Positions 3,979 to 31,751 are shown, counted from the first letter of the stretch. The stretch is 64,000 nt of DNA from an uncultured Tenacibaculum sp. (GCA_947492185.1 CANLMR010000011.1:12002-76001), one strand, 5' to 3'. Numbers and translations are program-made. Notes: a model not told the origin generated them from the sequence alone.

Positions 3979-5550
3979 TTATTTATCTTTATTATTGTTT
4001 TTCGCTAAAAGTGAGGCAAAGTTAAAACTTAATCCAATATTTAGGTTATTGGAATTAACATTTCCAAATGGTGCGTATAATTTACCTCCAGATATTTTTA
4101 GAGCTAGGTTATCTTTAATATGGTAATTAAAACCAATAGTTGGTCTAACAACTATTCCTTCATCTGTATCAACTCCAGCTCCTCCAGCGGCACCGCCAGT
4201 TAAATTAACAAATGCATCGAAATTATTATTGATGAATCTATTTGTTTTAAATCCTAATCCGATTAAACCATGTGCATATCCTCCAGATCTTCCACCATAA
4301 GCAAAACCAGCTTCACCTATTACATAAATATTTTTGAAAATATCATAGTTAAACTGTAGCCCTATTAGTTGTAAGTCTGTAGATAGTACATTGTTTGGGT
4401 CGTCGGTTTTATTCACATCGAAATACGTCTGATTCAATAAAGCAACAGAAATTCCCTGTGTTTTAAATGTGTTATTCCTATTTGAAGTTGGGGTTTTGGT
4501 CCCTCCAGATAGATTGATGTATTTTAAACCAAAACCAAGTGTATAGGCTTCAAAATCACCATCTAAAGCTCTGTAATATCCTCCATGTCCACTTAAAGCA
4601 AGATTATCTGAGATTTTTAAATCGATTCCAGCTGAAGGATAAACTGTAAGTCCGCCTTCAGGAGCAATTCTTCCACCTGCTGCTCCAATTCCAAGTTTAC
4701 CGAATAGGTTTATATATTTTGATTGATAAGGATGATAACCAGCTCCGAAGAACAAATCCATAAACCCAGCTCTTAATCCTTTATAAATGGCATCAGTATG
4801 TGCGAATAAGAACGTTTTATCATTTATATATTTTTGATATTCAAATCCTAAAACATATAAAGTTGAATCTAAATCAGTACCATTATCTCTTTTTGATTCA
4901 CCAGTAGGGAAGAAGAAGTCAAAACGAACTTGTTGTACGTTTTTAATAGTTGGTTTATTCCAAAAGAATTCAGTTTTATCTCCAAGTTTAAACTCTTTAT
5001 TGGCGTCTTCATATTTTGCAAATCTGAAAATACTTGGTATTTCAAAAAATACAGAAATAGCATTATCTTTAATTGAGCCCGTATAAAAATTTATATAACT
5101 GTATTGAACACCAAATGAGTAATTCTTCTTTTTATATTGTAGACCAATATTAGAGTTAATAAAAGCTCCATCATTAATTAAAATTCGATAACCACCACCT
5201 CCACCGAAGTGAATATTCCCATCAAAATATAAGTTATTGTAGATTTTTTTATTTACACCTAATTCAGCACCAAGAGTAAATAAACCACCTTGATCACCAG
5301 TTACCGCATAATGAAAACCAGCACCTCCATATAGCCAATCATTAAATGGAATTTGATAATGTAAACCTACTAAACCCATTGTAGCATCTAAATTTGGAAA
5401 TTCAGATGTAGGCATTGAAACTGGAATAAAGTTTAATCGTACTTTATTTGTTAATTCTTTACCTTCTAATGTAGAAATATCTTTTTGAGCAAAAGATAAA
5501 ACACAATTAAAAAGTATAAAGAAAGATAAGAGTTTAGTTTGTTTTTTCAT
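3979..5550 (-). CDS. Hypothetical outer-membrane protein, about three tandem beta-barrel-like repeats
   Basis: Signal peptide (SFAQ); repeated Gly/aromatic alternating strand blocks. Confidence 0.6.
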   Translation of the reverse strand: MKKQTKLLSFFILFNCVLSFAQKDISTLEGKELTNKVRLNFIPVSMPTSEFPNLDATMGLVGLHYQIPFNDWLYGGAGFHYAVTGDQGGLFTLGAELGVNKKIYNNLYFDGNIHFGGGGGYRILINDGAFINSNIGLQYKKKNYSFGVQYSYINFYTGSIKDNAISVFFEIPSIFRFAKYEDANKEFKLGDKTEFFWNKPTIKNVQQVRFDFFFPTGESKRDNGTDLDSTLYVLGFEYQKYINDKTFLFAHTDAIYKGLRAGFMDLFFGAGYHPYQSKYINLFGKLGIGAAGGRIAPEGGLTVYPSAGIDLKISDNLALSGHGGYYRALDGDFEAYTLGFGLKYINLSGGTKTPTSNRNNTFKTQGISVALLNQTYFDVNKTDDPNNVLSTDLQLIGLQFNYDIFKNIYVIGEAGFAYGGRSGGYAHGLIGLGFKTNRFINNNFDAFVNLTGGAAGGAGVDTDEGIVVRPTIGFNYHIKDNLALKISGGKLYAPFGNVNSNNLNIGLSFNFASLLAKNNNKDK

Positions 5551-23732: not shown

Positions 23733-25214
23733 ATGGAGCTATACAAAGAAAATCAACTAAAAATATACAATTCACTTTCTAAATCTAAAGAAAATTTTAA
23801 GCCTGTAATAGAAGGAAGAGTAGGAATGTATGTATGTGGACCAACTGTATACAGTAATGTACATTTAGGAAACTTAAGAACATTCATGTCTTTCGATATG
23901 GTTTTTAGATATCTATTACATTTAGGTTATAAAGTGCGTTATGTTCGTAATATTACTGATGCTGGACATTTAGAAAGCGATGCTGAAGAAGGAGAAGATA
24001 AGATAGCGAAAAAAGCACGCTTAGAAGAAATTGAGCCAATGGAAGTTGTTCAACGCTATACAGTTGATTTTCATGAAGTAACTGCTAAGTATAATTTTTT
24101 ACCACCAAGTATAGAACCAACTGCTACAGGTCATATAGTAGAACAAATTGAAATGATAAAGGAAATCATGGATAAAGGTTTTGCATATGAAGTAAATGGA
24201 TCTGTATATTTTGATGTAATAAAATATAATGAAGCAGGAAATAATTATGGAATACTTTCAGGAAGAAATATAGAAGATGCTATACATAATACTAGAGCTT
24301 TAGATGGACAATCGGAGAAGAAAAGCCCACAAGATTTTGCTCTATGGAAAAAAGCTGATGAACGTCATATTATGCGTTGGCCTTCACCTTGGAGTGAAGG
24401 GTTTCCTGGTTGGCATTTAGAATGTTCTGTGATGAGTTCTAAATATTTAGGAGAGCAAATTGATATTCATGGAGGTGGTATGGATCTTAAATTTCCACAT
24501 CACGAATGTGAAATTGCACAATCGCATACATGTTCTGGAGTTCAACCAGTAAATTATTGGATGCATGCAAATATGCTGTTGTTAAACGGACAAAAAATGT
24601 CTAAATCTACTGGAAATAGTATTTTACCAGATGAAATTTTATCTGGGAATAATACAATTTTAAGTAAAGCTTTTGGAGCTGGAGTTGTTCGTTTTTTTGC
24701 AATGCAAGCGCATTATAGAAGTATTTTAGATTTCTCTAATGATGCATTATTAGCTTCAGAAAAAGGATACAATAAGTTGATGGAAGCTATGAGTATTTTA
24801 AAAGAGTTAAAAGTATCAAAAGCATCAAGTTTTGATGTTGAAACATGGAAACAGAAGTGTTACGATGCTATGAATGATGATTTCAATACTCCCATTTTAA
24901 TCGCAAATATGTTTGAAGCGGTTAAATTTATCAATCAGGTTAAGGATAATAAAGGAACAATTACAGGTAAAGATTTAGAGTTGTTAAGCGCAACTTTGAA
25001 TTCTTTTATATATGATATATTAGGATTAATAAATGATTCAAAAGAACAAAGTTCAGATAAATTAGGAGGAGTAGTTGAGTTACTAATAAAGTTGAGGAAA
25101 GAAGCTAGAGACAATAAAAATTGGGCATTATCTGATCAAATTCGTGATGAACTAGCTGAATTAGGAATTCAACTAAAAGACGGACGAGAAGGAACTACTT
25201 TTTCTGTAAATTAA
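23733..25214 (+). CDS. cysS: Cysteinyl-tRNA synthetase
   Basis: [46 protein letters not shown]. Confidence 0.98.
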
Positions 25215-25218
25215 TATC

Positions 25219-25464
25219 TTGAAAAAAATACTTGCATATCCATTTATACTATTAATTCGTTTTTATCAAACGGCGATTTCACCATTTACTCCAGCAACTT
25301 GTAGGTATAACCCTACATGTTCTGCTTATTCTTTAGAAGCACTAAAAAAGCATGGTGTGTTTTATGGAGGATGGTTGGCAATGAAACGAATTTTTAGTTG
25401 TCATCCTTGGGGAGGAAGTGGTTATGATCCTGTACCAGAAAAGAAACAAAAAACTAAACTTTAA
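25219..25464 (+). CDS. yidD: Membrane protein insertion efficiency factor
   Basis: [30 protein letters not shown]. Confidence 0.95.
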
Positions 25465-25470
25465 CGATAC

Positions 25471-26325
25471 ATGAATTTTTTAGCAATTACATGGGATTGG
25501 AATCCTGAAATTTTTAACATTGGCGGATTTAGTATCCGTTGGTATAGTTTAATGTTTATCATTGCTTTTATTTTAGGGTTGCAACTAATGAAGAAAATTT
25601 ATACAGAGGATAAGATATCTCTTGAAAAAATGGATCCTTTGTTTATGTATACGTTTGTTTCCATGTTAATTGGAATGCGATTAGGGGAAGTTTTCTTTTA
25701 TAGCTGGGCAGATTATCAAAATAACCTACTTCAAATTATTTTACCTTTTAGAAAGCAAGAAGGAGCAGAAATGTTATTCGGTTTAGTTAAAGGATGGAAA
25801 TTTACTGGTATTTCCGGGTTTGCTAGTCATGGAGCAGCAATTGCAATTCCAATAGCTTTATACTTTTATGCAAAAAAGCATTTACAAAAATCATGGTTAT
25901 TTATTCTTGATAGAATGGGGATTATGGTTGCTTTAGCTGGATTCTTCATTAGAATGGGAAATTTCTTTAATTCTGAAATTTATGGAAAGCCAACAGGTTC
26001 AAGTTTTGGAGTAATATTTAAAAGAGCAGGAGAAAAAGTTCCATGTCATCCAACTCAGATATATGAAGCTTTTAGTTATCTAGTATTGTTTTTTATTTTA
26101 TGGAGATTATATTGGAAAACTGATAAGAAGCAAAAAGAAGGATATTTATTCGGAGTCTTTATGATTGCACTTTGGTCTCTACGATTTGTAATTGAGTTTA
26201 TAAAGAAACCACAAGTACACGAAAGGGGAGAGTGGGCTTTAAACACAGGACAATGGTTAAGTATTCCTTTAGTGTTAATTGGAGTTTGGCTGGTGTTGAG
26301 AAAAACTAAAGCTAAGACAGAATAA
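25471..26325 (+). CDS. lgt: Prolipoprotein diacylglyceryl transferase
   Basis: IRWYS, GMRLG, FASHG, RMGNFFNSEIYG, HPTQIYE. Confidence 0.96.
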   Translation: MNFLAITWDWNPEIFNIGGFSIRWYSLMFIIAFILGLQLMKKIYTEDKISLEKMDPLFMYTFVSMLIGMRLGEVFFYSWADYQNNLLQIILPFRKQEGAEMLFGLVKGWKFTGISGFASHGAAIAIPIALYFYAKKHLQKSWLFILDRMGIMVALAGFFIRMGNFFNSEIYGKPTGSSFGVIFKRAGEKVPCHPTQIYEAFSYLVLFFILWRLYWKTDKKQKEGYLFGVFMIALWSLRFVIEFIKKPQVHERGEWALNTGQWLSIPLVLIGVWLVLRKTKAKTE

Positions 26326-26374
26326 TCGTTTTAAAATAAATTCTGAATAAAATATTCTAGTTCTATTTCTTTAG

Positions 26375-26473
26375 GAACTTCCAATTTTTTACGAATTCTA
26401 TAGCGTAGTTTACATTGTTCGATTAGAAGTTGATGGAAAAGTAATTAATAAGAAAGTAATATTTGAAAAGTAA
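26375..26473 (+). pseudogene. Remnant resembling the end of a T9SS C-terminal sorting domain
   Basis: In-frame ELPIFYEFYSVVYIVRLEVDGKVINKKVIFEK*, no start codon, TAG at 26372. Confidence 0.55.
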
Positions 26474-26481
26474 TTAAGATA

Positions 26482-26592
26482 CTGTCATTGCGAATGTAGA
26501 GAAGCGTAATGAAGCAACTTTTTATTTTCTGAACTAAATTCAAAATAAAGAAAATAAGATTACTTCGTCGTTATCACTCATCGCAATGACGG
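26482..26592. repeat. REP-like inverted doublet (CGTC-type, REPIN/MITE-like)
   Basis: GTCATTGCGA (26484-26493) and TCGCAATGAC (26581-26590), plus imperfect inner arms gaagcaactttttattttct / agaaaataagattacttc. Confidence 0.75.
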
Positions 26593-26610
26593 ATTTAATT
26601 CATAATAAAA

Positions 26611-26784
26611 ATGAAGAAATTAAATCAAATCAAAAACAAAGAAACGATCACCAGAAAAGAAGCATTACAAAAAATAGGTGATTATGGAAAATATTCAGTA
26701 TTAACAGCTTTAGGAACTTACTTAATTTTAAACCCTAAAAAGGCACAAGCTGCTTCCCCAGAAGCACCTGGAGATGGGTTTTAA
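26611..26784 (+). CDS. 57-aa secreted micro-peptide precursor (not in ORF track)
   Basis: MKKLNQIKNKETITRKEALQKIGDYGKYSVLTALGTYLILNPKKAQAASPEAPGDGF; own terminator 5 nt after the stop. Confidence 0.8.
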   Translation: MKKLNQIKNKETITRKEALQKIGDYGKYSVLTALGTYLILNPKKAQAASPEAPGDGF

Positions 26785-26789
26785 ATTTT

Positions 26790-26820
26790 AAAAGGAGTAA
26801 CATTTTGTTACTCCTTTTTT
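26790..26820 (+). terminator. Intrinsic terminator of the micro-peptide gene
   Basis: aaaaggagtaaca-ttt-tgttactcctttt plus T-run. Confidence 0.8.
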
Positions 26821-26920
26821 AGTACGTTATTTTTTGTTAATTTTCAATTTAGAATTTCATTAGCATTATTGAAATTGTAGATAACCTAAACTAATTACTA
26901 ACTTACTAAAACACAGATCT

Positions 26921-28783
26921 ATGAAAAAATATATTTTCTTCATGATCTTTTTGGGAATTACCAATTTTAGTTTTACCCAAAACAAAATAGAATCATTACA
27001 AAAAAAATTAAATAAAGTATCTGAAGTAAAAGATCAGATAGCGATTTTAGATACTTTAACTACCGAAATGGTTAGGAATAATCATCCTGAGCAGAATAAA
27101 TTCCTAAATAAAATAGTTTTATTGTCTAAAGAAAATGACAATTATGATTTAGCAGCTGAAAAATCTCGATTTATCATACAAGCCTACACAAATAAAGGAC
27201 AATTAGATTCCGCATTGTATGTAATAGAATCAATGTTAAAAGGAAAACCAAAATTTAAAAAGAAAAGTTCAGAAGCTCATTTATTACTAAAAAGAGCATC
27301 TTATTATTACAATAATGAAAAGCTTGATAAAGCTGTTCAAGATTATGATGTTTCAGCAAATTTATTTTTAGAAAGTAAAGATTCAATATTTGCTGCTGAT
27401 GCTAGGTTTTTTGCGGGTCAGGCGTATTTCGATATCAATGATTTTTTAAAGAGTGTCAAGCGTTTTGAAGAAGCATATTTTTTATACGATACTTTAGGAG
27501 ATAAAGATTATGCAAATTATGCACTTAATGAATTGTCGAGTTTGTATGGAAAAAATGGTTTTCATGATAAAGCAATTTATGAAAGAAAAAGAATTTTACA
27601 AGATGCGAAATCATCAAATAACTGGCATGGTATATTTTACGCTTATTCTCATTTATTTACTTCTTTTTATAAAAAGAATCAGATAGGAATAGCTAAGAAA
27701 TATTTGGACTCTATGGTTATTTCCCAAAATAAGATAGAAAACGAAAGAGGAAAAAGAGAATCAGAATTACATGTGTCTAAAATGTTTACTAAATATTATT
27801 TGAAAACTAATAATTTAGATAGCGCATCCATCTATTTAAAAGAGTTTGAAAACAAACTGAAAATTGGAAGTAATAGTGCTAAATATAATAGAAATGCATT
27901 TCTGTTATATAGTGCAAGGTTTGCAAAACAGAAAAAGAATTATATAGAATCTCAAAGGTTTTACGAACAGTTATTAGATAAAAACAATAGGGTAGGAGAC
28001 CTACAAATGTTGATAAATGCTAATAAAGAAATCTCTGAAGTACTTGCTGCTCAAAACAAATTTGGAGAATCATATAAGTACTTGAAAAATTTTTCAGATT
28101 TAAAAGAACCTGAAGATTCAAGAATTAAGACGAATACATTTTTGTATTATCAATCTGAGTTTGAAACTCAAAGAAAAGATGCTGAAATTTTTAAAAAGAA
28201 AACGCAAATAACATTACTTGAAAAAGATAGGACGATTTTAGAAACTAATAGAAATCTTTTAAGGGTAGTTTTATTATCAGTTATTTTGCTTTCTATTGTT
28301 ATTGGTTATTTTATTTGGTTAAAAGGAAAATTAAAACGTAAAGCATTAGCTAAAAAACTTGAAAAAAACAAACAAGAACTTAAAGAGTTTACACAACAGC
28401 TTTTAGAGAAAAGTAAAGTTCAAGAGTCGTTAACAAAAGAGTTAGAAAAGTTAAAAGAAGAAATAGGAGAGCAAAAATCCATAGAAAAAATTCATGACTT
28501 AACTACGACTAGAATTTTAACTCCAGATGATTGGTATTTGTTTAAAGAAAAATTTAGCCAAGTCCATCCAACATTTTTTGTTCGATTAAAAAATAAAGGA
28601 TATAAACTTACCAAATCAGAAGAACGATTATTGGCTATGGAAAAGTTGTATTTAGATACAAAACAAATAGCAAGTATGTTAGCTATTTCTAATGATAGTG
28701 TAGTGAGAAGCCGTTCTCGCTTAAGAAAAAAAATTAATGCGCCTAAAGGAAGTTCTATACTTGAATACCTTGAGGCATCGTAA
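26921..28783 (+). CDS. One-component regulator: signal peptide, TPR-like helical sensor, TM helix, coiled coil, LuxR-like HTH
   Basis: TM LLRVVLLSVILLSIVIGYFIWL; ILTPDDWYLFKEKF; LTKSEERLLAMEKL..DTKQIASMLAIS..SV.RSRSRLRKK. Confidence 0.8.
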   Translation: MKKYIFFMIFLGITNFSFTQNKIESLQKKLNKVSEVKDQIAILDTLTTEMVRNNHPEQNKFLNKIVLLSKENDNYDLAAEKSRFIIQAYTNKGQLDSALYVIESMLKGKPKFKKKSSEAHLLLKRASYYYNNEKLDKAVQDYDVSANLFLESKDSIFAADARFFAGQAYFDINDFLKSVKRFEEAYFLYDTLGDKDYANYALNELSSLYGKNGFHDKAIYERKRILQDAKSSNNWHGIFYAYSHLFTSFYKKNQIGIAKKYLDSMVISQNKIENERGKRESELHVSKMFTKYYLKTNNLDSASIYLKEFENKLKIGSNSAKYNRNAFLLYSARFAKQKKNYIESQRFYEQLLDKNNRVGDLQMLINANKEISEVLAAQNKFGESYKYLKNFSDLKEPEDSRIKTNTFLYYQSEFETQRKDAEIFKKKTQITLLEKDRTILETNRNLLRVVLLSVILLSIVIGYFIWLKGKLKRKALAKKLEKNKQELKEFTQQLLEKSKVQESLTKELEKLKEEIGEQKSIEKIHDLTTTRILTPDDWYLFKEKFSQVHPTFFVRLKNKGYKLTKSEERLLAMEKLYLDTKQIASMLAISNDSVVRSRSRLRKKINAPKGSSILEYLEAS

Positions 28784-28813
28784 ATTATAACTAATATTTA
28801 ATTGTTTTTTCTG

Positions 28814-28833
28814 TTTTGTCCGTTTTTTGTCCG
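28814..28833 (+). promoter_or_regulatory. Direct repeat TTTTGTCCG x2, 11-bp period
   Basis: Copies at 28814-28822 and 28825-28833 in otherwise AT-rich DNA. Confidence 0.5.
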
Positions 28834-28928
28834 GGTGATTTTCTTTATTTTTTTTGGTTTAATTATTTCTTTTGTGGTGTCAACAACAATCATTCATAGT
28901 TTACAATACATCCAAAAAAAATAATCAA

Positions 28929-29111
28929 ATGTTATTTACTACTACTAAAAACACCAAGAGAAAAAAATACAAAGTTAGAAAGTCAAAAATCAAGTTCTTA
29001 TTATTACCTATTTTATATAAAGGTAAGTTCCACTGGTTATCAAAAGTTCGTTTAGAAAAAGCCTTTAATGGTTATAAAATGATGATAATAGGAATAGAGA
29101 GAGTTGCTTAA
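28929..29111 (+). CDS. Small basic hypothetical protein (60 aa)
   Basis: MLFTTTKNTKRKKYKVRKSKIKFLLLPILYKGKFHWLSKVRLEKAFNGYKMMIIGIERVA; followed by a terminator. Confidence 0.45.
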   Translation: MLFTTTKNTKRKKYKVRKSKIKFLLLPILYKGKFHWLSKVRLEKAFNGYKMMIIGIERVA

Positions 29112-29136
29112 CTAAGTTTTTGGGATTATTATGTTT

Positions 29137-29172
29137 ATTATAGGGGTTTCTTTTGAAGGGTACCCCTATAAT
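29137..29172. terminator. Bidirectional terminator
   Basis: attataggggt...acccctataat between convergent genes. Confidence 0.65.
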
Positions 29173-29174
29173 TT

Positions 29175-31751
29175 TTAATAACTATCCACTAAACTCATTA
29201 GTTGCAATTTCTTTTTAAAATTTTCAAGTGTTTTTATATTTCCTTTTTTAATTGAAATTGTTCTCTCAGAATTAGGAAGCATATTAAAGTAATTGTCAGA
29301 AAAATTTTCATCAAAATTTCCTGAAGCAAATACGCCAATTGCTAATTTTTTAGTGTTAATTGATACGATATATTCGGTTTCATTTTCGTTTACATCATAT
29401 CTTAATTCAGGTTTTGGTAATTCTAGTTCTTTAAAAGGAACTAAGAAGTTTTCTTTGCTGTCAATAGAGTTGTTATTGGTTAATAAATTTGCGCTTAAAA
29501 ACACCTTGTTAGGTTCAGTAGTATATTTAAAAAGATCAACTTTAGAAACGGTTAAATAACTTCTAGAAATATTTGCTTTAACGTTTACATCTTTATTCCA
29601 AGTATGAACTTCTTTTCCTTCAAAATCCATCAATTTTAATTCAATTTTAGCATCAAAATCATTTAAAGAATCTGTAGCAATAAAAAGTTTAATTTCTTTT
29701 TCTTTGTTATCGAAACTTAATATGGTTTTCTTAAAAGTATTTTTTACTCCGTAATGTAACGCTTTCCATTTTCCGTAATAATCAATACTCGACCAAGAAG
29801 CTACTGGCCAACAATCGTTAATTTGCCAATACAATGATCCCATGCAACGATATCTATTTTTACGATGAGCTTCAATTCCAGTTGTAATTCCATAAGCTTG
29901 TAATAAATGACTTACATATAAAAAACTCTCAAAATCTTTTGGTTGCCTATAATGACGAAGCATATATTCTTTTATGGTTCCATTTCCTATACTAGAACGT
30001 TGATGAGATTTCATTACTTCGGAGAAGATATCATGATCCTCAGGGATAGTATATTTATTTACAGTGGCTAGTTCAGGGAACGATTGAAATCCAAATTCCG
30101 ACATAAATCTTGGAATCTTTACATTATAATTTTCAAACGGTTCTTTTCCCCACCAAACTCCCCAATAATGTGCATCACCATCGGTATGAGATTCTGCCAC
30201 TCCTAATTCACTACTAGGAGAAGAAGCCCAGTATTTTCTATCTGAATCAAATTCATTTACCACTTCAGGTAATACTTTATGAAAAATATCTTTATAAGCT
30301 TTCCATATGGTATCGGCAATTTCTTGAGATTGTTCTTTTACAGCTTGTTGTTTCCAACCCCAGCGTTCCCAAGCTGACAGTACTTCATTATTACCACACC
30401 ATAATGCAATTGAAGTATGATTTCTTAATCTTTTTACATTATCTATAGCTTCTTGTTTTACACTTTCAAGAAAATCTTTATCTCCAGGAAACATTGCACA
30501 AGCAAACATAAAATCTTGCCAAACCAATAATCCCATTTCATCGCATAAATCATAAAATTCTTTCTTTTCATAAATCCCACCACCCCAAACACGAATCATA
30601 TTCATATTTGCATTTTTTGCAGAGTTTAGAATATGTTTATAATCTGCTGAGGTAACTCGATCTAAAAATACATCTTGTGGAATGTAATTTGCACCTTTCA
30701 TAAATGTTGGAACGCCATTTACTTTAAAGTAAAAAGAACTACCTATTGAATCCTTTTCAGTTACTAATTCGATAGTACGCAAACCAACTCTATGTGATTT
30801 AAAATCTGTATGTTTTTTTGAAGAAAATTTTACAGTAACATCATATAACTCTTGATTTCCCATTCCATTCGGCCACCAGAGTTTTGGATTGTTTATTTGA
30901 AAAGGGATATTGAATTTATTGATTCCTTTAGTTAATGATATTTCTTTTGTAATCGTTATGGTATCGTTCACCAAAATATCTAGGTTAGTTTTTTCAATGT
31001 TTTTTGCACTATTAATTTCTATTTCAGCAGAAAGAGACGCAGTTTTATCTATGTTTTTTTGACGTATAAAAACATCATTAATTTTGAAGTGATTCCAGTT
31101 TCTCAGTATAACAGGTCTCCATATTCCAGAAGTAACTAATCGCGGTCCCCAATCCCAACCAAAATGATATCCAGCTTTTCTTAGGAAAATACTTACTTTC
31201 TTGTTGTCTTTAACTTTTCCTATTTCCGCTAAATCGTTATTTGAAACAGGAATTTTAAAGTTGAATTTATCATGTTCAATCATTCCTCTATTAATTGGCG
31301 ATTCTAAAACAACTTTTAATACATTATTTGCTTCTCTTAGATAAGACTTAACATCTACTTGGTAATTACGGAACATATTATCCGTTTTTAAGAGTAAAGA
31401 ATCGTTTAAGTATATTTTTGAATAGGTATCAATTCCTCTAAAATCCAATTCAATAAACTCACTATTCAGAACTTCTTCTTTTAAATTAAAAGAAGTTTCA
31501 TATTCCCAATCAGTTTTATCTATCCACTGAACATCATGCTCATTGAGCCTATAAAAAGGATCTTTAATTTTGTTGTTAGCAATTAAATCTGAATGAACAG
31601 TGCTGGGAACATTTGCTTTAGTCCAGCTAGTGTCATTTGCTTTTTTAAACTTCCAATTTGTATTAAGTTCCATTTCATTTACAATAGATTTTTTGCATCC
31701 AACAGTTAAAAATATTATAAGAGAGAGTATAGCGTAATGAAGTGATTTCAT
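29175..31751 (-). CDS. GH2 beta-mannosidase, lipoprotein
   Basis: FGWDWGP, KGANYIP, NMNMIRVWGGG, WQDFMFAC, WCGNNE, RFMSEFGFQS, LYWQINDCWP. Confidence 0.93.
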   Translation of the reverse strand: MKSLHYAILSLIIFLTVGCKKSIVNEMELNTNWKFKKANDTSWTKANVPSTVHSDLIANNKIKDPFYRLNEHDVQWIDKTDWEYETSFNLKEEVLNSEFIELDFRGIDTYSKIYLNDSLLLKTDNMFRNYQVDVKSYLREANNVLKVVLESPINRGMIEHDKFNFKIPVSNNDLAEIGKVKDNKKVSIFLRKAGYHFGWDWGPRLVTSGIWRPVILRNWNHFKINDVFIRQKNIDKTASLSAEIEINSAKNIEKTNLDILVNDTITITKEISLTKGINKFNIPFQINNPKLWWPNGMGNQELYDVTVKFSSKKHTDFKSHRVGLRTIELVTEKDSIGSSFYFKVNGVPTFMKGANYIPQDVFLDRVTSADYKHILNSAKNANMNMIRVWGGGIYEKKEFYDLCDEMGLLVWQDFMFACAMFPGDKDFLESVKQEAIDNVKRLRNHTSIALWCGNNEVLSAWERWGWKQQAVKEQSQEIADTIWKAYKDIFHKVLPEVVNEFDSDRKYWASSPSSELGVAESHTDGDAHYWGVWWGKEPFENYNVKIPRFMSEFGFQSFPELATVNKYTIPEDHDIFSEVMKSHQRSSIGNGTIKEYMLRHYRQPKDFESFLYVSHLLQAYGITTGIEAHRKNRYRCMGSLYWQINDCWPVASWSSIDYYGKWKALHYGVKNTFKKTILSFDNKEKEIKLFIATDSLNDFDAKIELKLMDFEGKEVHTWNKDVNVKANISRSYLTVSKVDLFKYTTEPNKVFLSANLLTNNNSIDSKENFLVPFKELELPKPELRYDVNENETEYIVSINTKKLAIGVFASGNFDENFSDNYFNMLPNSERTISIKKGNIKTLENFKKKLQLMSLVDSY

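What the first reader, a model, noticed from the sequence alone, without database searches (positions are those of the whole stretch)
26611..29111. Candidate Gram-negative peptide-signalling module: secreted peptide + periplasmic TPR/LuxR-like receptor + target promoter
Seen: micro-peptide gene, then 136 nt later a signal-peptide/TPR/TM/HTH regulator, then an 11-bp-period TTTTGTCCG repeat and a small terminated ORF. Known: TPR domains bind peptide pheromones in Gram-positive RRNPP regulators. Inference: the exported 10-mer could be the ligand for the periplasmic TPR domain, a quorum- or secretion-sensing circuit not described in Bacteroidota to my knowledge. Adjacency could also be an accident of the upstream deletion.
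Basis: inference. Interest (0 to 1): 0.72.

Follow-up and report, generated by a model that had tools for sequence, protein, structure and literature searches.

The report
Orphaned secretion-cargo peptide beside membrane regulator
The small peptide gene is a leftover tail gene of a deleted type IX secretion cargo operon, not a dedicated signal for the neighbouring membrane sensor-regulator, but that regulator, its conserved DNA repeat and the small gene after it form a real, undescribed control unit.

Summary
The proposed pairing of peptide and receptor does not hold. The 57-aa peptide belongs to a large multi-copy family in Tenacibaculum, Polaribacter and relatives. It is a real coding gene: codon-position differences are 0.16/0.055/0.48. 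In 80 of 83 cases it lies about 30 nt downstream of a gene ending in a type IX secretion (T9SS) type A sorting domain. In 65 of 88 cases an intrinsic terminator follows it. The window keeps the last 32 codons of such a sorting domain (26375-26473) just upstream of the peptide, and a strong terminator (26790-26821) separates the peptide from the regulator. Only 7 of 88 copies are followed by a TPR-HTH regulator. Syntenic orthologues of this regulator (L079, L061) have no peptide upstream.

The second half of the finding is supported. The regulator is a signal peptide, TPR solenoid, one transmembrane helix and a LuxR-like HTH. The repeat TTGTCCG-N4-TTTTGTCCGG follows every orthologue that has free space. 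In 9 of 9 sites it sits at a fixed distance from a Bacteroidota -7-like box. The 60-aa ORF downstream is conserved, and its paralogues sit 5' of cargo genes. The functions of both micro-proteins and the sensor's ligand remain unknown.

The parts
26375..26473 (+). Relic of the 3' end of a T9SS type A cargo gene. It encodes the last 32 codons of the C-terminal sorting domain plus the stop (ELPIFYEFYSVVYIVRLEVDGKVINKKVIFEK*). In-frame stops lie upstream at 26348 and 26372.
   Evidence: In blastn, window 26407-26473 aligns at 81-82% with the last 65 nt of the cargo genes of L012 and L009 (L002: 76% over a 375-nt alignment that includes it). In tblastn, sorting-domain ends of upstream cargo ORFs match 26375/26408-26470, with best identity 75% to L012.
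26482..26597 (.). REP-like palindromic insert between the cargo relic and the peptide gene. Its arms are GTCATTGCGA... and ...TCGCAATGAC.
   Evidence: The fold energy is -37.8 kcal/mol, z -5.5. Both arms were found. One arm lies at the same place in L002. L001 and L002 also have 129-140 nt gaps at this position.
26611..26784 (+). Gene for a 57-aa signal-like micro-protein: a variable K/N-rich N-terminus, then ITRKEALQKIGDYGKYSVLTALGTYLILNPKKAQA, then ASPEAPGDGF. It belongs to a multi-copy family that normally forms the last gene of T9SS type A cargo operons. Here it is orphaned.
   Evidence: The family has 643 homologous proteins and 419 genomic relatives. Codon-position differences are 0.16/0.055/0.48. 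80 of 83 upstream ORFs carry Por_Secre_tail. There is no Pfam or NCBIfam hit.
26790..26821 (+). Intrinsic terminator of the peptide (former cargo) transcript: a 13-bp stem followed by a U-tract.
   Evidence: The fold energy is -16.8 kcal/mol, z -6.8, and 0 of 200 shuffles fold as well. A comparable hairpin plus T-tail follows 65 of 88 family members, against 2 of 88 in shuffled controls.
26921..28783 (+). Membrane-tethered one-component regulator of 620 aa. It has a signal peptide, a periplasmic TPR solenoid of about 340 aa, a single transmembrane helix (about residues 447-470), a cytoplasmic coiled coil and a LuxR/GerE-like HTH (about residues 559-616).
   Evidence: Pfam hits are. Orthologues at 50-67% identity occur in Tenacibaculum and Aquimarina, and relatives carry the same sensor fused to HisKA_3/HATPase_c. 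The AF2 model has pLDDT 86. Foldseek finds LGN/Pins and consensus TPR at 4e-8 and Rap/NprR at 1e-6. A family profile matches the EsrB DNA-binding domain at E 4e-3.
28814..28835 (+). Direct repeat TTTTGTCCG-TT-TTTTGTCCGG with an 11-bp period. It is the candidate operator (activator site) of the regulator, placed at about -63 to -46 of the downstream promoter.
   Evidence: The repeat exceeds chance. It is conserved downstream of orthologous regulators in L061, L049, L075, L076, L079 and L080. The strict pattern gave 7 hits in 879 kb of loci (6 sites; L076 and L077 carry the same Aquimarina locus) against about 0.45 in shuffles. All hits lie in loci with regulators of this class.
28863..28874 (+). 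Bacteroidota -7-like promoter box (TTATTTCTTTTG). The TTTG ends exactly 58 nt from the first T of the repeat. A transcription start is expected near 28880.
   Evidence: The same spacing holds in 9 of 9 sites from 7 genomes. The consensus -7 box TAnnTTTG comes from established knowledge of Bacteroidota promoters and is recalled, not tested here.
28929..29111 (+). Conserved gene for a 60-aa basic micro-protein (...KFLLLPILYKGKFHWLSKVRLEKAFNGYKMMIIGIE...). It is the probable target of the regulator. Paralogues lie immediately 5' of T9SS cargo genes.
   Evidence: tblastn finds copies right after regulator orthologues in L061 (76% identity), L049 and L079, and copies in front of the 743-aa and 2349-aa cargo genes in nine or more loci. 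Database homologues are P0319-P0321. There is no Pfam or NCBIfam hit.
29137..29177 (+). Terminator hairpin plus T-run ending the small-ORF transcript. It abuts the stop of the convergent GH2 beta-mannosidase gene (29175-31751, minus strand).
   Evidence: The fold energy is -17.7 kcal/mol, z -3.8.

Best explanation
The 2.5-kb region is two separate transcription units that are neighbours by rearrangement, not a peptide-receptor pair.

**Unit 1 (26375-26821)** is the decayed tail of a type IX secretion cargo operon. The cargo gene has been deleted down to the last 32 codons of its sorting domain. What survives is the usual last gene of such operons, a 57-aa signal-like micro-protein, together with its terminator. 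In related genomes this micro-protein is encoded about 30 nt after the stop of many different type A cargo genes, in five or more copies per genome. It therefore most likely acts with the cargo or the secretion pathway. It could be an exported short Pro/Gly-rich peptide or a small inner-membrane helix. Which of these it is, and what it does, are inferred, not shown.

**Unit 2 (26921-29177)** is a membrane-tethered one-component regulator. A periplasmic TPR solenoid senses an unknown ligand, probably an extended peptide or protein segment. The signal passes through a single transmembrane helix and coiled coil to a cytoplasmic LuxR-like HTH. The HTH most likely binds the two TGTCCG half-sites, which lie one helical turn apart at about -63 to -46 of a weak Bacteroidota promoter. 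Binding would activate the downstream gene.

In this genome the downstream gene is only a conserved 60-aa basic micro-protein. In other genomes it is the same micro-protein followed by a giant T9SS cargo, or a giant LRR/T9SS cargo directly.

The complete cassette seen elsewhere is regulator, small basic protein, cargo, signal-like peptide(s), terminator. A peptide-then-regulator adjacency therefore arises naturally where one cassette ends and the next begins.
For: **Peptide linked to cargo.**
- 76 of 88 copies lie at most 64 nt after a co-directional large ORF.
- 80 of 83 of those ORFs carry Por_Secre_tail.
- 65 of 88 copies are followed by a terminator, against 2 of 88 in shuffles.
- Downstream genes are heterogeneous and 25 of 88 lie on the opposite strand: gyrB, folE, FIST, redoxin, AraC, a transposase and further cargo.

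**Real coding gene.** Third-position differences are 0.48, against 0.055 at second positions.

**Cargo relic in the window.**

**Terminator between peptide and regulator.** z -6.8.

**Synteny without the peptide.** L079 has cysS-yidD-lgt, a 384-nt gap with no peptide, the regulator, then the small ORF. In L061 lgt and the regulator are 133 nt apart.

**Regulator architecture.**

**Operator.**
- The repeat follows every orthologue that has free space. It lies in front of the small ORF (window, L061, L049, L079) or of large LRR/T9SS cargo genes (L075, L076 twice, L080, L049).
- The repeat-to-TTTG spacing is exactly 58 nt in 9 of 9 sites.
- L075 and L080 carry two tandem regulators and also a second, different direct repeat, TTTTGCCAC twice.

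**Full cassette.** L082 shows regulator, small ORF, 2349-aa cargo and two peptide copies.
Against: - No expression, binding or secretion data exist. No public sequencing run holds this sequence.
- Assigning the repeat to this regulator rests on co-location only.
- The LuxR/GerE assignment of the HTH is below Pfam's cut-off.
- TPR-HTH regulators of this class lie near cargo-peptide modules repeatedly: L011, L017, L034, L044, L049, L061, L078, L029 and the window. A functional connection between regulators and cassettes is therefore likely, and a role for the peptide in it is not excluded.
- Only a subset of cargo genes carry the peptide. 30 further sorting-domain ORFs in the same loci lack it.
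- The orphan peptide gene is fully intact, which could mean that it still functions on its own.
Confidence: 0.7

Rival explanations
1. The peptide is exported and cleaved to ASPEAPGDGF. It then binds the periplasmic TPR domain of the adjacent regulator, which switches on the 28814 promoter. The result would be a dedicated peptide-signalling or secretion-sensing circuit.
For: - The TPR solenoid resembles peptide-binding TPR domains (LGN/Pins, Rap, NprR).
- The peptide has a signal-like N-region, a 13-residue hydrophobic core and an AQA motif.
- Regulators of this class lie directly after a peptide copy in 7 of 88 cases.
- Their operator also precedes T9SS cargo genes whose operons may end in the peptide. 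A feedback loop is therefore conceivable.
Against: - The peptide tracks with cargo genes, not regulators.
- Orthologues of this regulator lack the upstream peptide.
- The tail is nearly invariant across five or more paralogues per genome and across species, while the regulator's sequence falls to 50-66% identity.
- Peptides are abundant in Polaribacter, yet no Polaribacter protein appears among the 47 regulator homologues.
- A terminator separates the two genes.
- The adjacency follows a deletion.
Confidence: 0.07
2. The TGTCCG direct repeat is not the operator of the adjacent TPR-HTH regulator. It would instead be the site of another factor, or part of an alternative-sigma promoter, that happens to be syntenic with the regulator gene.
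For: - Assignment to the regulator rests on co-location alone.
- An ECF sigma/FecR pair lies next to one cassette (L081, L082).
- In L082 the regulator-to-small-ORF spacer (87 nt) has no such repeat.
Against: - The repeat was found only in loci that carry regulators of this class.
- Loci with two tandem regulators carry two different repeats.
- An 11-bp direct repeat at a fixed distance upstream of a housekeeping-type -7 box is the layout of an activator site. It is not the layout of a -35/-10 pair.
Confidence: 0.15
3. The peptide is a precursor of a ribosomally synthesised, post-translationally modified peptide or bacteriocin. Its conserved N-terminal part would be a leader and its variable Pro/Gly-rich part the core.
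For: Across 280 clusters at 50% identity the N-terminal 45 residues are conserved. The tail varies in length and sequence, and some tails are Cys-rich.
Against: - No maturase, peptidase-transporter or immunity gene recurs next to the peptide. Its neighbours are cargo genes upstream and unrelated genes downstream.
- Within Tenacibaculum the 'core' is almost invariant.
Confidence: 0.03

Closest known systems
RRNPP peptide-sensing regulators of Firmicutes (Rap, NprR, PlcR, PrgX)
   Same: Both have a TPR superhelix of similar size. Foldseek matches Rap and NprR at E about 1e-6. In PlcR, NprR and PrgX the TPR is coupled to an HTH output.
   Different: RRNPP receptors are cytoplasmic, and their peptide is re-imported. 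Here the TPR is predicted to be periplasmic, lying between a signal peptide and a transmembrane helix, and the HTH is C-terminal. The cognate pro-peptide gene of RRNPP systems is paired with the receptor. Here the peptide family is paired with T9SS cargo genes instead.
Membrane-bound one-component regulators (ToxR, TcpP, CadC)
   Same: Both are single-pass inner-membrane proteins with a periplasmic sensor and a cytoplasmic DNA-binding domain. Both have direct-repeat operators with a period of about one helical turn upstream of the activated promoter. The ToxR site TNAAA-N5-TNAAA is recalled from the literature, not tested here.
   Different: ToxR-like proteins have an N-terminal OmpR-type winged helix and a C-terminal periplasmic domain. 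This protein has the opposite order: a signal peptide, an N-terminal periplasmic TPR domain and a C-terminal LuxR/GerE-like HTH.
PorP/SprF-like genes next to T9SS type B cargo genes in Flavobacterium johnsoniae
   Same: The principle is shared: a dedicated accessory gene sits directly beside individual T9SS cargo genes.
   Different: Those are outer-membrane beta-barrel proteins of about 300 aa linked to type B sorting domains (recalled from the literature). The micro-proteins here are 55-60 aa, have no known domain, and are linked to type A sorting domains (Por_Secre_tail).
PorXY-SigP-PorA control of T9SS in Porphyromonas gingivalis (PMC7712824, listed)
   Same: It is a regulatory route connected to T9SS in which a small secretion-related protein feeds into signalling.
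   Different: That route uses a two-component system plus an ECF sigma factor, and it controls machinery genes. Here a one-component TPR-HTH regulator sits beside cargo genes. No homology was found.
BT3442 family (NCBIfam NF053779), a TPR multi-domain protein at the head of the Bacteroides thetaiotaomicron MACPF cluster (PMC2954219)
   Same: The only match is a weak one of the C-terminal 86 residues to the C-terminal end of the profile (E 3e-4). Both are TPR proteins of Bacteroidota beside genes for surface or secreted proteins.
   Different: The score is 19.7 bits against a cut-off of 940, so this regulator is not a member. The function of BT3442 is itself unknown.

Membership tests
RRNPP-type peptide signalling pair | The pro-peptide gene is genetically paired with its receptor across genomes. 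| tested here: not met
   80 of 83 upstream neighbours are T9SS cargo genes. Only 7 of 88 downstream neighbours are TPR-HTH regulators, all from one blastp cluster of ~545-aa paralogues. Orthologues of this regulator in L079 and L061 lack the peptide.
RRNPP-type peptide signalling pair | The receptor is cytoplasmic and binds a re-imported peptide. | tested here: not met
   An N-terminal signal-like segment and a single later transmembrane helix followed by KGKLKRK place the TPR domain outside the cytoplasm. This is a topology inference, and no predictor was run.
RRNPP-type peptide signalling pair | The TPR fold is of the Rap/NprR type. | tested here: inconclusive
   Rap and NprR match at E about 1e-6 with TM 0.55-0.66. 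Generic TPR proteins (LGN/Pins, consensus TPR) match better, at 4e-8.
LuxR/GerE (NarL/FixJ-type) HTH DNA-binding domain | A match to PF00196 above its gathering score. | tested here: inconclusive
   The window protein scores 18.0 bits against a cut-off of 23.5. A paralogue in L029 scores 21.6 bits. A profile of 36 orthologues matches the EsrB DNA-binding domain at E 4e-3 over residues 559-616. The AF2 model shows a C-terminal helical bundle.
T9SS type A cargo operon (relic) | A Por_Secre_tail (PF18962) sorting domain at the C-terminus of the gene directly upstream of the peptide. | tested here: met
   The feature is met in 80 of 83 related loci. In the window only the last 32 codons remain. 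They match the ends of those domains at up to 75% identity over 20 residues, and at 81-82% at DNA level over 65 nt. The relic is too short for Pfam itself.
Twin-arginine (Tat) signal peptide | A match to TIGR01409/PF10518 with an S/T-R-R-x-F-L-K motif. | tested here: not met
   The window peptide has T-R-K-E-A-L-Q-K and no hit. Of 58 diverse members, 1 reaches TAT_signal_seq at E 0.011. A few members carry RR. This is a resemblance only.
Sec signal peptide cleaved by signal peptidase I | An n-region, h-region and c-region with A-x-A at -3/-1. | not testable with these tools
   The sequence shows basic residues, a 13-residue hydrophobic core, and NPKKAQA with Pro at -6. No SignalP-type predictor was available. 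Q at -2 and S at +2 are invariant across the family, which is more than a plain cleavage site needs.
RiPP precursor | A modifying enzyme or dedicated transporter is encoded next to the precursor. | tested here: not met
   The neighbours are cargo genes upstream and unrelated genes downstream.
ToxR/CadC-like membrane one-component regulators | An N-terminal cytoplasmic OmpR-type winged HTH, one transmembrane helix and a C-terminal periplasmic sensor. | tested here: not met
   The domain order is reversed and the HTH is LuxR-like. The protein has a comparable layout (periplasmic sensor, one transmembrane helix, cytoplasmic DNA-binding domain) but is not a member.

The most novel reading that the evidence does not exclude
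T9SS cargo genes of marine Flavobacteriaceae sit in cassettes bracketed by two undescribed micro-proteins. One is a basic protein of about 57 aa at the 5' end. The other is an exported signal-like peptide of about 55 aa at the 3' end. The cassettes are driven by periplasmic TPR-LuxR sensors through a TGTCCG direct repeat. In this reading the 3' peptide is the periplasmic read-out of cargo-operon expression or secretion load, and those TPR sensors detect it. That would be a secretion-coupled peptide feedback circuit in a Gram-negative phylum. The cassette layout is supported here. The sensing step is pure inference.
Probability: 0.07. Interest if true: 0.8.

Novelty: new variant of a known kind. 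Interest (0 to 1): 0.5.

Why it matters
- **The proposed circuit is unsupported.** There is no support for a Gram-negative peptide-pheromone circuit here, which saves a costly experimental chase.
- **Three testable items remain, none with a Pfam or NCBIfam model or, as far as five literature searches found, a publication:**
  - a family of signal-like micro-proteins with hundreds of members, encoded right after T9SS type A cargo genes;
  - a second micro-protein family encoded right before cargo genes;
  - a class of membrane-tethered TPR-LuxR regulators with a precisely positioned direct-repeat operator in front of giant adhesin-like cargo genes.
- **How cargo genes are controlled is largely unknown.** Little is known about how individual T9SS cargo genes are regulated and handled in Flavobacteriia, a group that includes the fish pathogens of Tenacibaculum.
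- **The operator allows regulon prediction.** The operator motif plus its fixed spacing can be used directly to predict regulons from sequence.

Tried and rejected
- **Rfam.** A scan of 25000-30000 at E up to 1 gave only sub-threshold chance matches over the terminator.
- **Promoter and terminator scan.** The sigma-70 promoter scan did not exceed shuffles and does not cover Bacteroidota promoters. Its terminator rule missed the hairpin at 26790 because the T-run is partly inside the stem.
- **Sequencing runs.** No public run holds the region, so there are no expression data.
- **Other peptide copies.** tblastn found no second copy of the peptide, and no other sorting-domain ORF, in the 64-kb window.
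- **Contig look-ups.** P0124 and P0132 are not on record.
- **Small-ORF structure.** The AF2 model of the 60-aa protein, built from 4 sequences, is a single low-confidence helix and is uninformative.
- **Tat signal.** HMM support is essentially absent.
- **RiPP precursor.** Rejected because no maturase recurs next to the peptide.
- **Origin of the cargo relic.** I considered that it derives from the 743-aa cargo that neighbours the regulator orthologue in L061. This was rejected because the relic is closest to the roughly 1900-aa cargo family of L002, L009 and L012.
- **Literature.** Searches on BT3442, T9SS with small ORFs, Tenacibaculum with LuxR, and Bacteroidetes TPR with LuxR-type found no description of these elements.
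- **Tandem Repeats Finder.** It reports only a 9-bp T-rich period at 28803-28828, not the 11-bp repeat.
Full report
**Observation.**
- The 57-aa ORF runs from 26611 to 26784. The 620-aa ORF starts 136 nt later, at 26921.
- The 620-aa protein has a signal-like N-terminus and a Pfam TPR_12 hit.
- Its AF2 model has pLDDT 86. It shows a TPR solenoid at residues 36-377 and one long helix at 381-514 that includes the hydrophobic stretch at about 447-470. A C-terminal helical domain follows.
- The C-terminal domain matches LuxR/GerE only weakly. Pfam gives 18.0 bits against a cut-off of 23.5. A profile of 36 orthologues matches the EsrB DNA-binding domain at E 4e-3.
- TTTTGTCCG occurs twice, 11 bp apart, at 28814 and 28825. 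There are 3 matches in the window against 0.27 expected.
- The small ORF at 28929-29111 ends before a hairpin plus T-run.

**What the peptide is.**
- It has 643 homologues in the protein collection and 419 confirmed genomic relatives. These lie mostly in Tenacibaculum and Polaribacter, with at least 5-7 copies per genome.
- Within Tenacibaculum the whole sequence after the first ten residues is conserved, including the tail ASPEAPGDGF.
- Across 280 clusters at 50% identity, nearly all members are 40-100 aa. They share [ST]R[KR]xA[LI]KK.GKYAALTALGTF.ILNPKKAQAxS, followed by a variable Pro/Gly-rich tail.
- It is a real gene. Among 81 distinct copies, pairwise differences per site are 0.16, 0.055 and 0.48 at codon positions 1, 2 and 3.
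- It has no Pfam or NCBIfam model.

**What the peptide is linked to.**
- In 74 loci holding 88 copies, 85 have a co-directional ORF upstream, and 76 of these end at most 64 nt before the peptide.
- Of the 83 distinct upstream ORFs, 80 end in the T9SS type A sorting domain Por_Secre_tail.
- A strong hairpin plus T-tail follows 65 of 88 copies, against 2 of 88 after shuffling. The peptide is therefore normally the last gene of a cargo operon.
- Downstream genes are heterogeneous, and 25 are on the opposite strand. They include 22 further cargo genes, gyrB, folE, FIST, redoxin, AraC and a transposase.
- TPR-HTH regulators of about 545 aa follow the peptide in only 7 cases, all in a single blastp cluster.
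- Not every cargo gene has the peptide. 30 other sorting-domain ORFs in these loci lack it.

**The window copy is an orphan.**
- Window 26407-26473 aligns at 81-82% with the last 65 nt of the cargo genes in L012 and L009, and within a 76% alignment of 375 nt to L002.
- Translated, 26375-26470 reads ELPIFYEFYSVVYIVRLEVDGKVINKKVIFEK. This is the canonical end of the sorting domain, up to 75% identical over 20 residues to those of related cargo. In-frame stops lie just upstream.
- The cargo gene has therefore been deleted down to its last 32 codons, directly after lgt.
- A REP-like palindrome (26482-26597, z -5.5) fills the space before the peptide, as in L002.
- Immediately after the peptide stop lies a 13-bp stem with a U-tract (26790-26821, -16.8 kcal/mol, z -6.8). 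The peptide and the regulator are thus separate transcription units.

**The regulator's orthologues do not have the peptide.**
- The closest orthologues are 57-67% identical.
- L079 is syntenic with the window: cysS, yidD, lgt, a 384-nt gap, the regulator and a 61-aa ORF. tblastn finds no peptide in its gap.
- In L061, lgt and the regulator are 133 nt apart. The nearest peptide belongs to a convergent cargo operon.
- No Polaribacter protein appears among the 47 regulator homologues, although Polaribacter carries many peptide copies.
- Aquimarina has the regulator without a peptide in the 12 kb held.

**The regulator, its repeat and the small ORF form a real unit.**
- The small ORF is conserved directly after the regulator in L061 (76% identity), L049 and L079.
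- Its paralogues lie immediately 5' of the 743-aa cargo in eight loci, and 5' of a 2349-aa cargo in L081 and L082.
- The repeat TTGTC(C/T)G-N3/4-TTTTGTCCGG follows every orthologue that has free space. These are the window, L061, L049, L075, L076, L079 and L080.
- The repeat also precedes other large LRR or T9SS cargo genes in L049 and L076.
- The strict pattern TGTCC-N6-TGTCC gave 7 hits in 879 kb (6 sites; L076 and L077 carry the same Aquimarina locus), all in loci with such regulators. Shuffles gave about 0.45.
- In 9 of 9 sites, a T.nnTTTG box ends exactly 58 nt from the first T of the repeat.
- By recalled knowledge of Bacteroidota promoters (-7 box TAnnTTTG), this places the half-sites at about -63 to -46. 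That is the position of an activator site in front of a promoter with a weak -33 element.
- L075 and L080 carry two tandem regulators. They have an additional, different direct repeat, TTTTGCCAC twice, about 110 nt upstream. This fits one operator type per paralogue.
- That the HTH binds the repeat is inferred from co-location, not shown.

**The sensor.**
- Foldseek places the periplasmic domain with LGN/Pins and consensus TPR superhelices at 4e-8. Rap and NprR match at 1e-6. It is a groove-forming TPR that could bind an extended peptide, but it is not specifically of the RRNPP type.
- Relatives carry the same TPR and transmembrane module fused to HisKA_3/HATPase_c instead of the HTH. The module is therefore a portable periplasmic input domain.
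- The ligand is unknown.

**Synthesis.**
- The complete cassette appears in L082: TPR-HTH regulator, small basic protein, T9SS cargo, signal-like peptide (two copies), terminator.
- In strain 190524A05c such cassettes lie head to tail with further regulators and cargo genes.
- A peptide-then-regulator adjacency is what one expects at the junction of two cassettes.
- In the window, the upstream cassette has lost its cargo. The downstream unit consists only of the regulator, its operator and the small protein, as in L061 and L079.

**Comparison with known systems.**
- The regulator is laid out like membrane-bound one-component regulators such as ToxR and CadC. It has the reverse domain order and a LuxR-like HTH, so it is not a member.
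- It fails the defining features of RRNPP systems, namely a cytoplasmic receptor and a paired pro-peptide gene.
- The cargo-adjacent micro-proteins recall the PorP/SprF-like genes beside type B cargo only in principle.
- Five literature searches found no description of any of these elements.

**Verdict.**
The regulator and its target promoter hold. The peptide as ligand does not.
- What is there is a new variant of known kinds, and is moderately interesting. Two undescribed micro-protein families bracket T9SS cargo genes. A TPR-LuxR membrane regulator class has a precisely positioned operator that can be searched for in sequence.

Noticed in passing
window 26482-26597; L002 5870-5879: A REP-like palindrome (GTCATTGCGA... 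/ ...TCGCAATGAC, 116 nt, -37.8 kcal/mol, z -5.5) is inserted between the cargo stop and the peptide start. L001 and L002 have similar gaps of 129-140 nt, and L002 shares one arm. This may be a small mobile or RNA-stabilising element.
   Followed up: partly
L075 6993-7015; L080 5927-5949: A second direct repeat, TTTTGCCAC-TTTTTGCCAC (10-bp period), lies about 110 nt upstream of the TGTCYG repeat. It occurs only in loci where a ~545-aa and a ~621-aa TPR-HTH regulator sit in tandem. It is possibly the operator of the 545-aa paralogue.
   Followed up: partly
L034 6001-6147 and 6530-6664; L005 6001-6150 and 6329-6463; L078 5460-5302 and 4919-4785; L081 10001-10174 and 10320-10487: The peptide gene is often tandemly duplicated after a single cargo gene. 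The duplicates have different N-terminal residues but identical tails.
   Followed up: no
P0237, P0263, P0270, P0274: Some distant members of the peptide family carry tails of 60-90 aa that are rich in Cys, Pro and Gly (for example CDDGNPATCCPTCYDGDPSTPCP...). They look like small disulphide-rich secreted domains behind the same conserved N-terminal part.
   Followed up: no
P0162, P0164-P0167: Relatives of the regulator keep the TPR sensor but end in HisKA_3 and HATPase_c. This is the same input domain on a histidine kinase instead of an HTH.
   Followed up: no
L049 6001-6147: This is a second orphan peptide copy. No cargo gene lies upstream (a 903-nt gap, then a divergent LRR gene with its own TGTCC repeat at 5183). 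A 552-aa TPR-HTH regulator follows directly.
   Followed up: partly
L081 versus L082, positions 1-2683: These two sister strains differ upstream of the same cassette. L082 has a 545-aa TPR-GerE regulator between the ECF sigma gene and the small ORF. L081 lacks it. This shows recent gain or loss of the regulator.
   Followed up: no
L073 (contig labelled Arenicella sp. MAG): A peptide plus T9SS cargo locus typical of Flavobacteriaceae sits in a MAG labelled as a gammaproteobacterium. The contig is probably mis-binned.
   Followed up: no
window 29175-31751 (-): A GH2 beta-mannosidase-like gene converges on the small ORF. The hairpin at 29137-29172 abuts its stop codon and may terminate both transcripts.
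   Followed up: no
window 26921 versus database entry P0121: The public gene call for the regulator (613 aa) starts at Met8. This removes the basic MKKY n-region of the signal-like segment. The ATG at 26921 fits the orthologue alignment better.
   Followed up: partly
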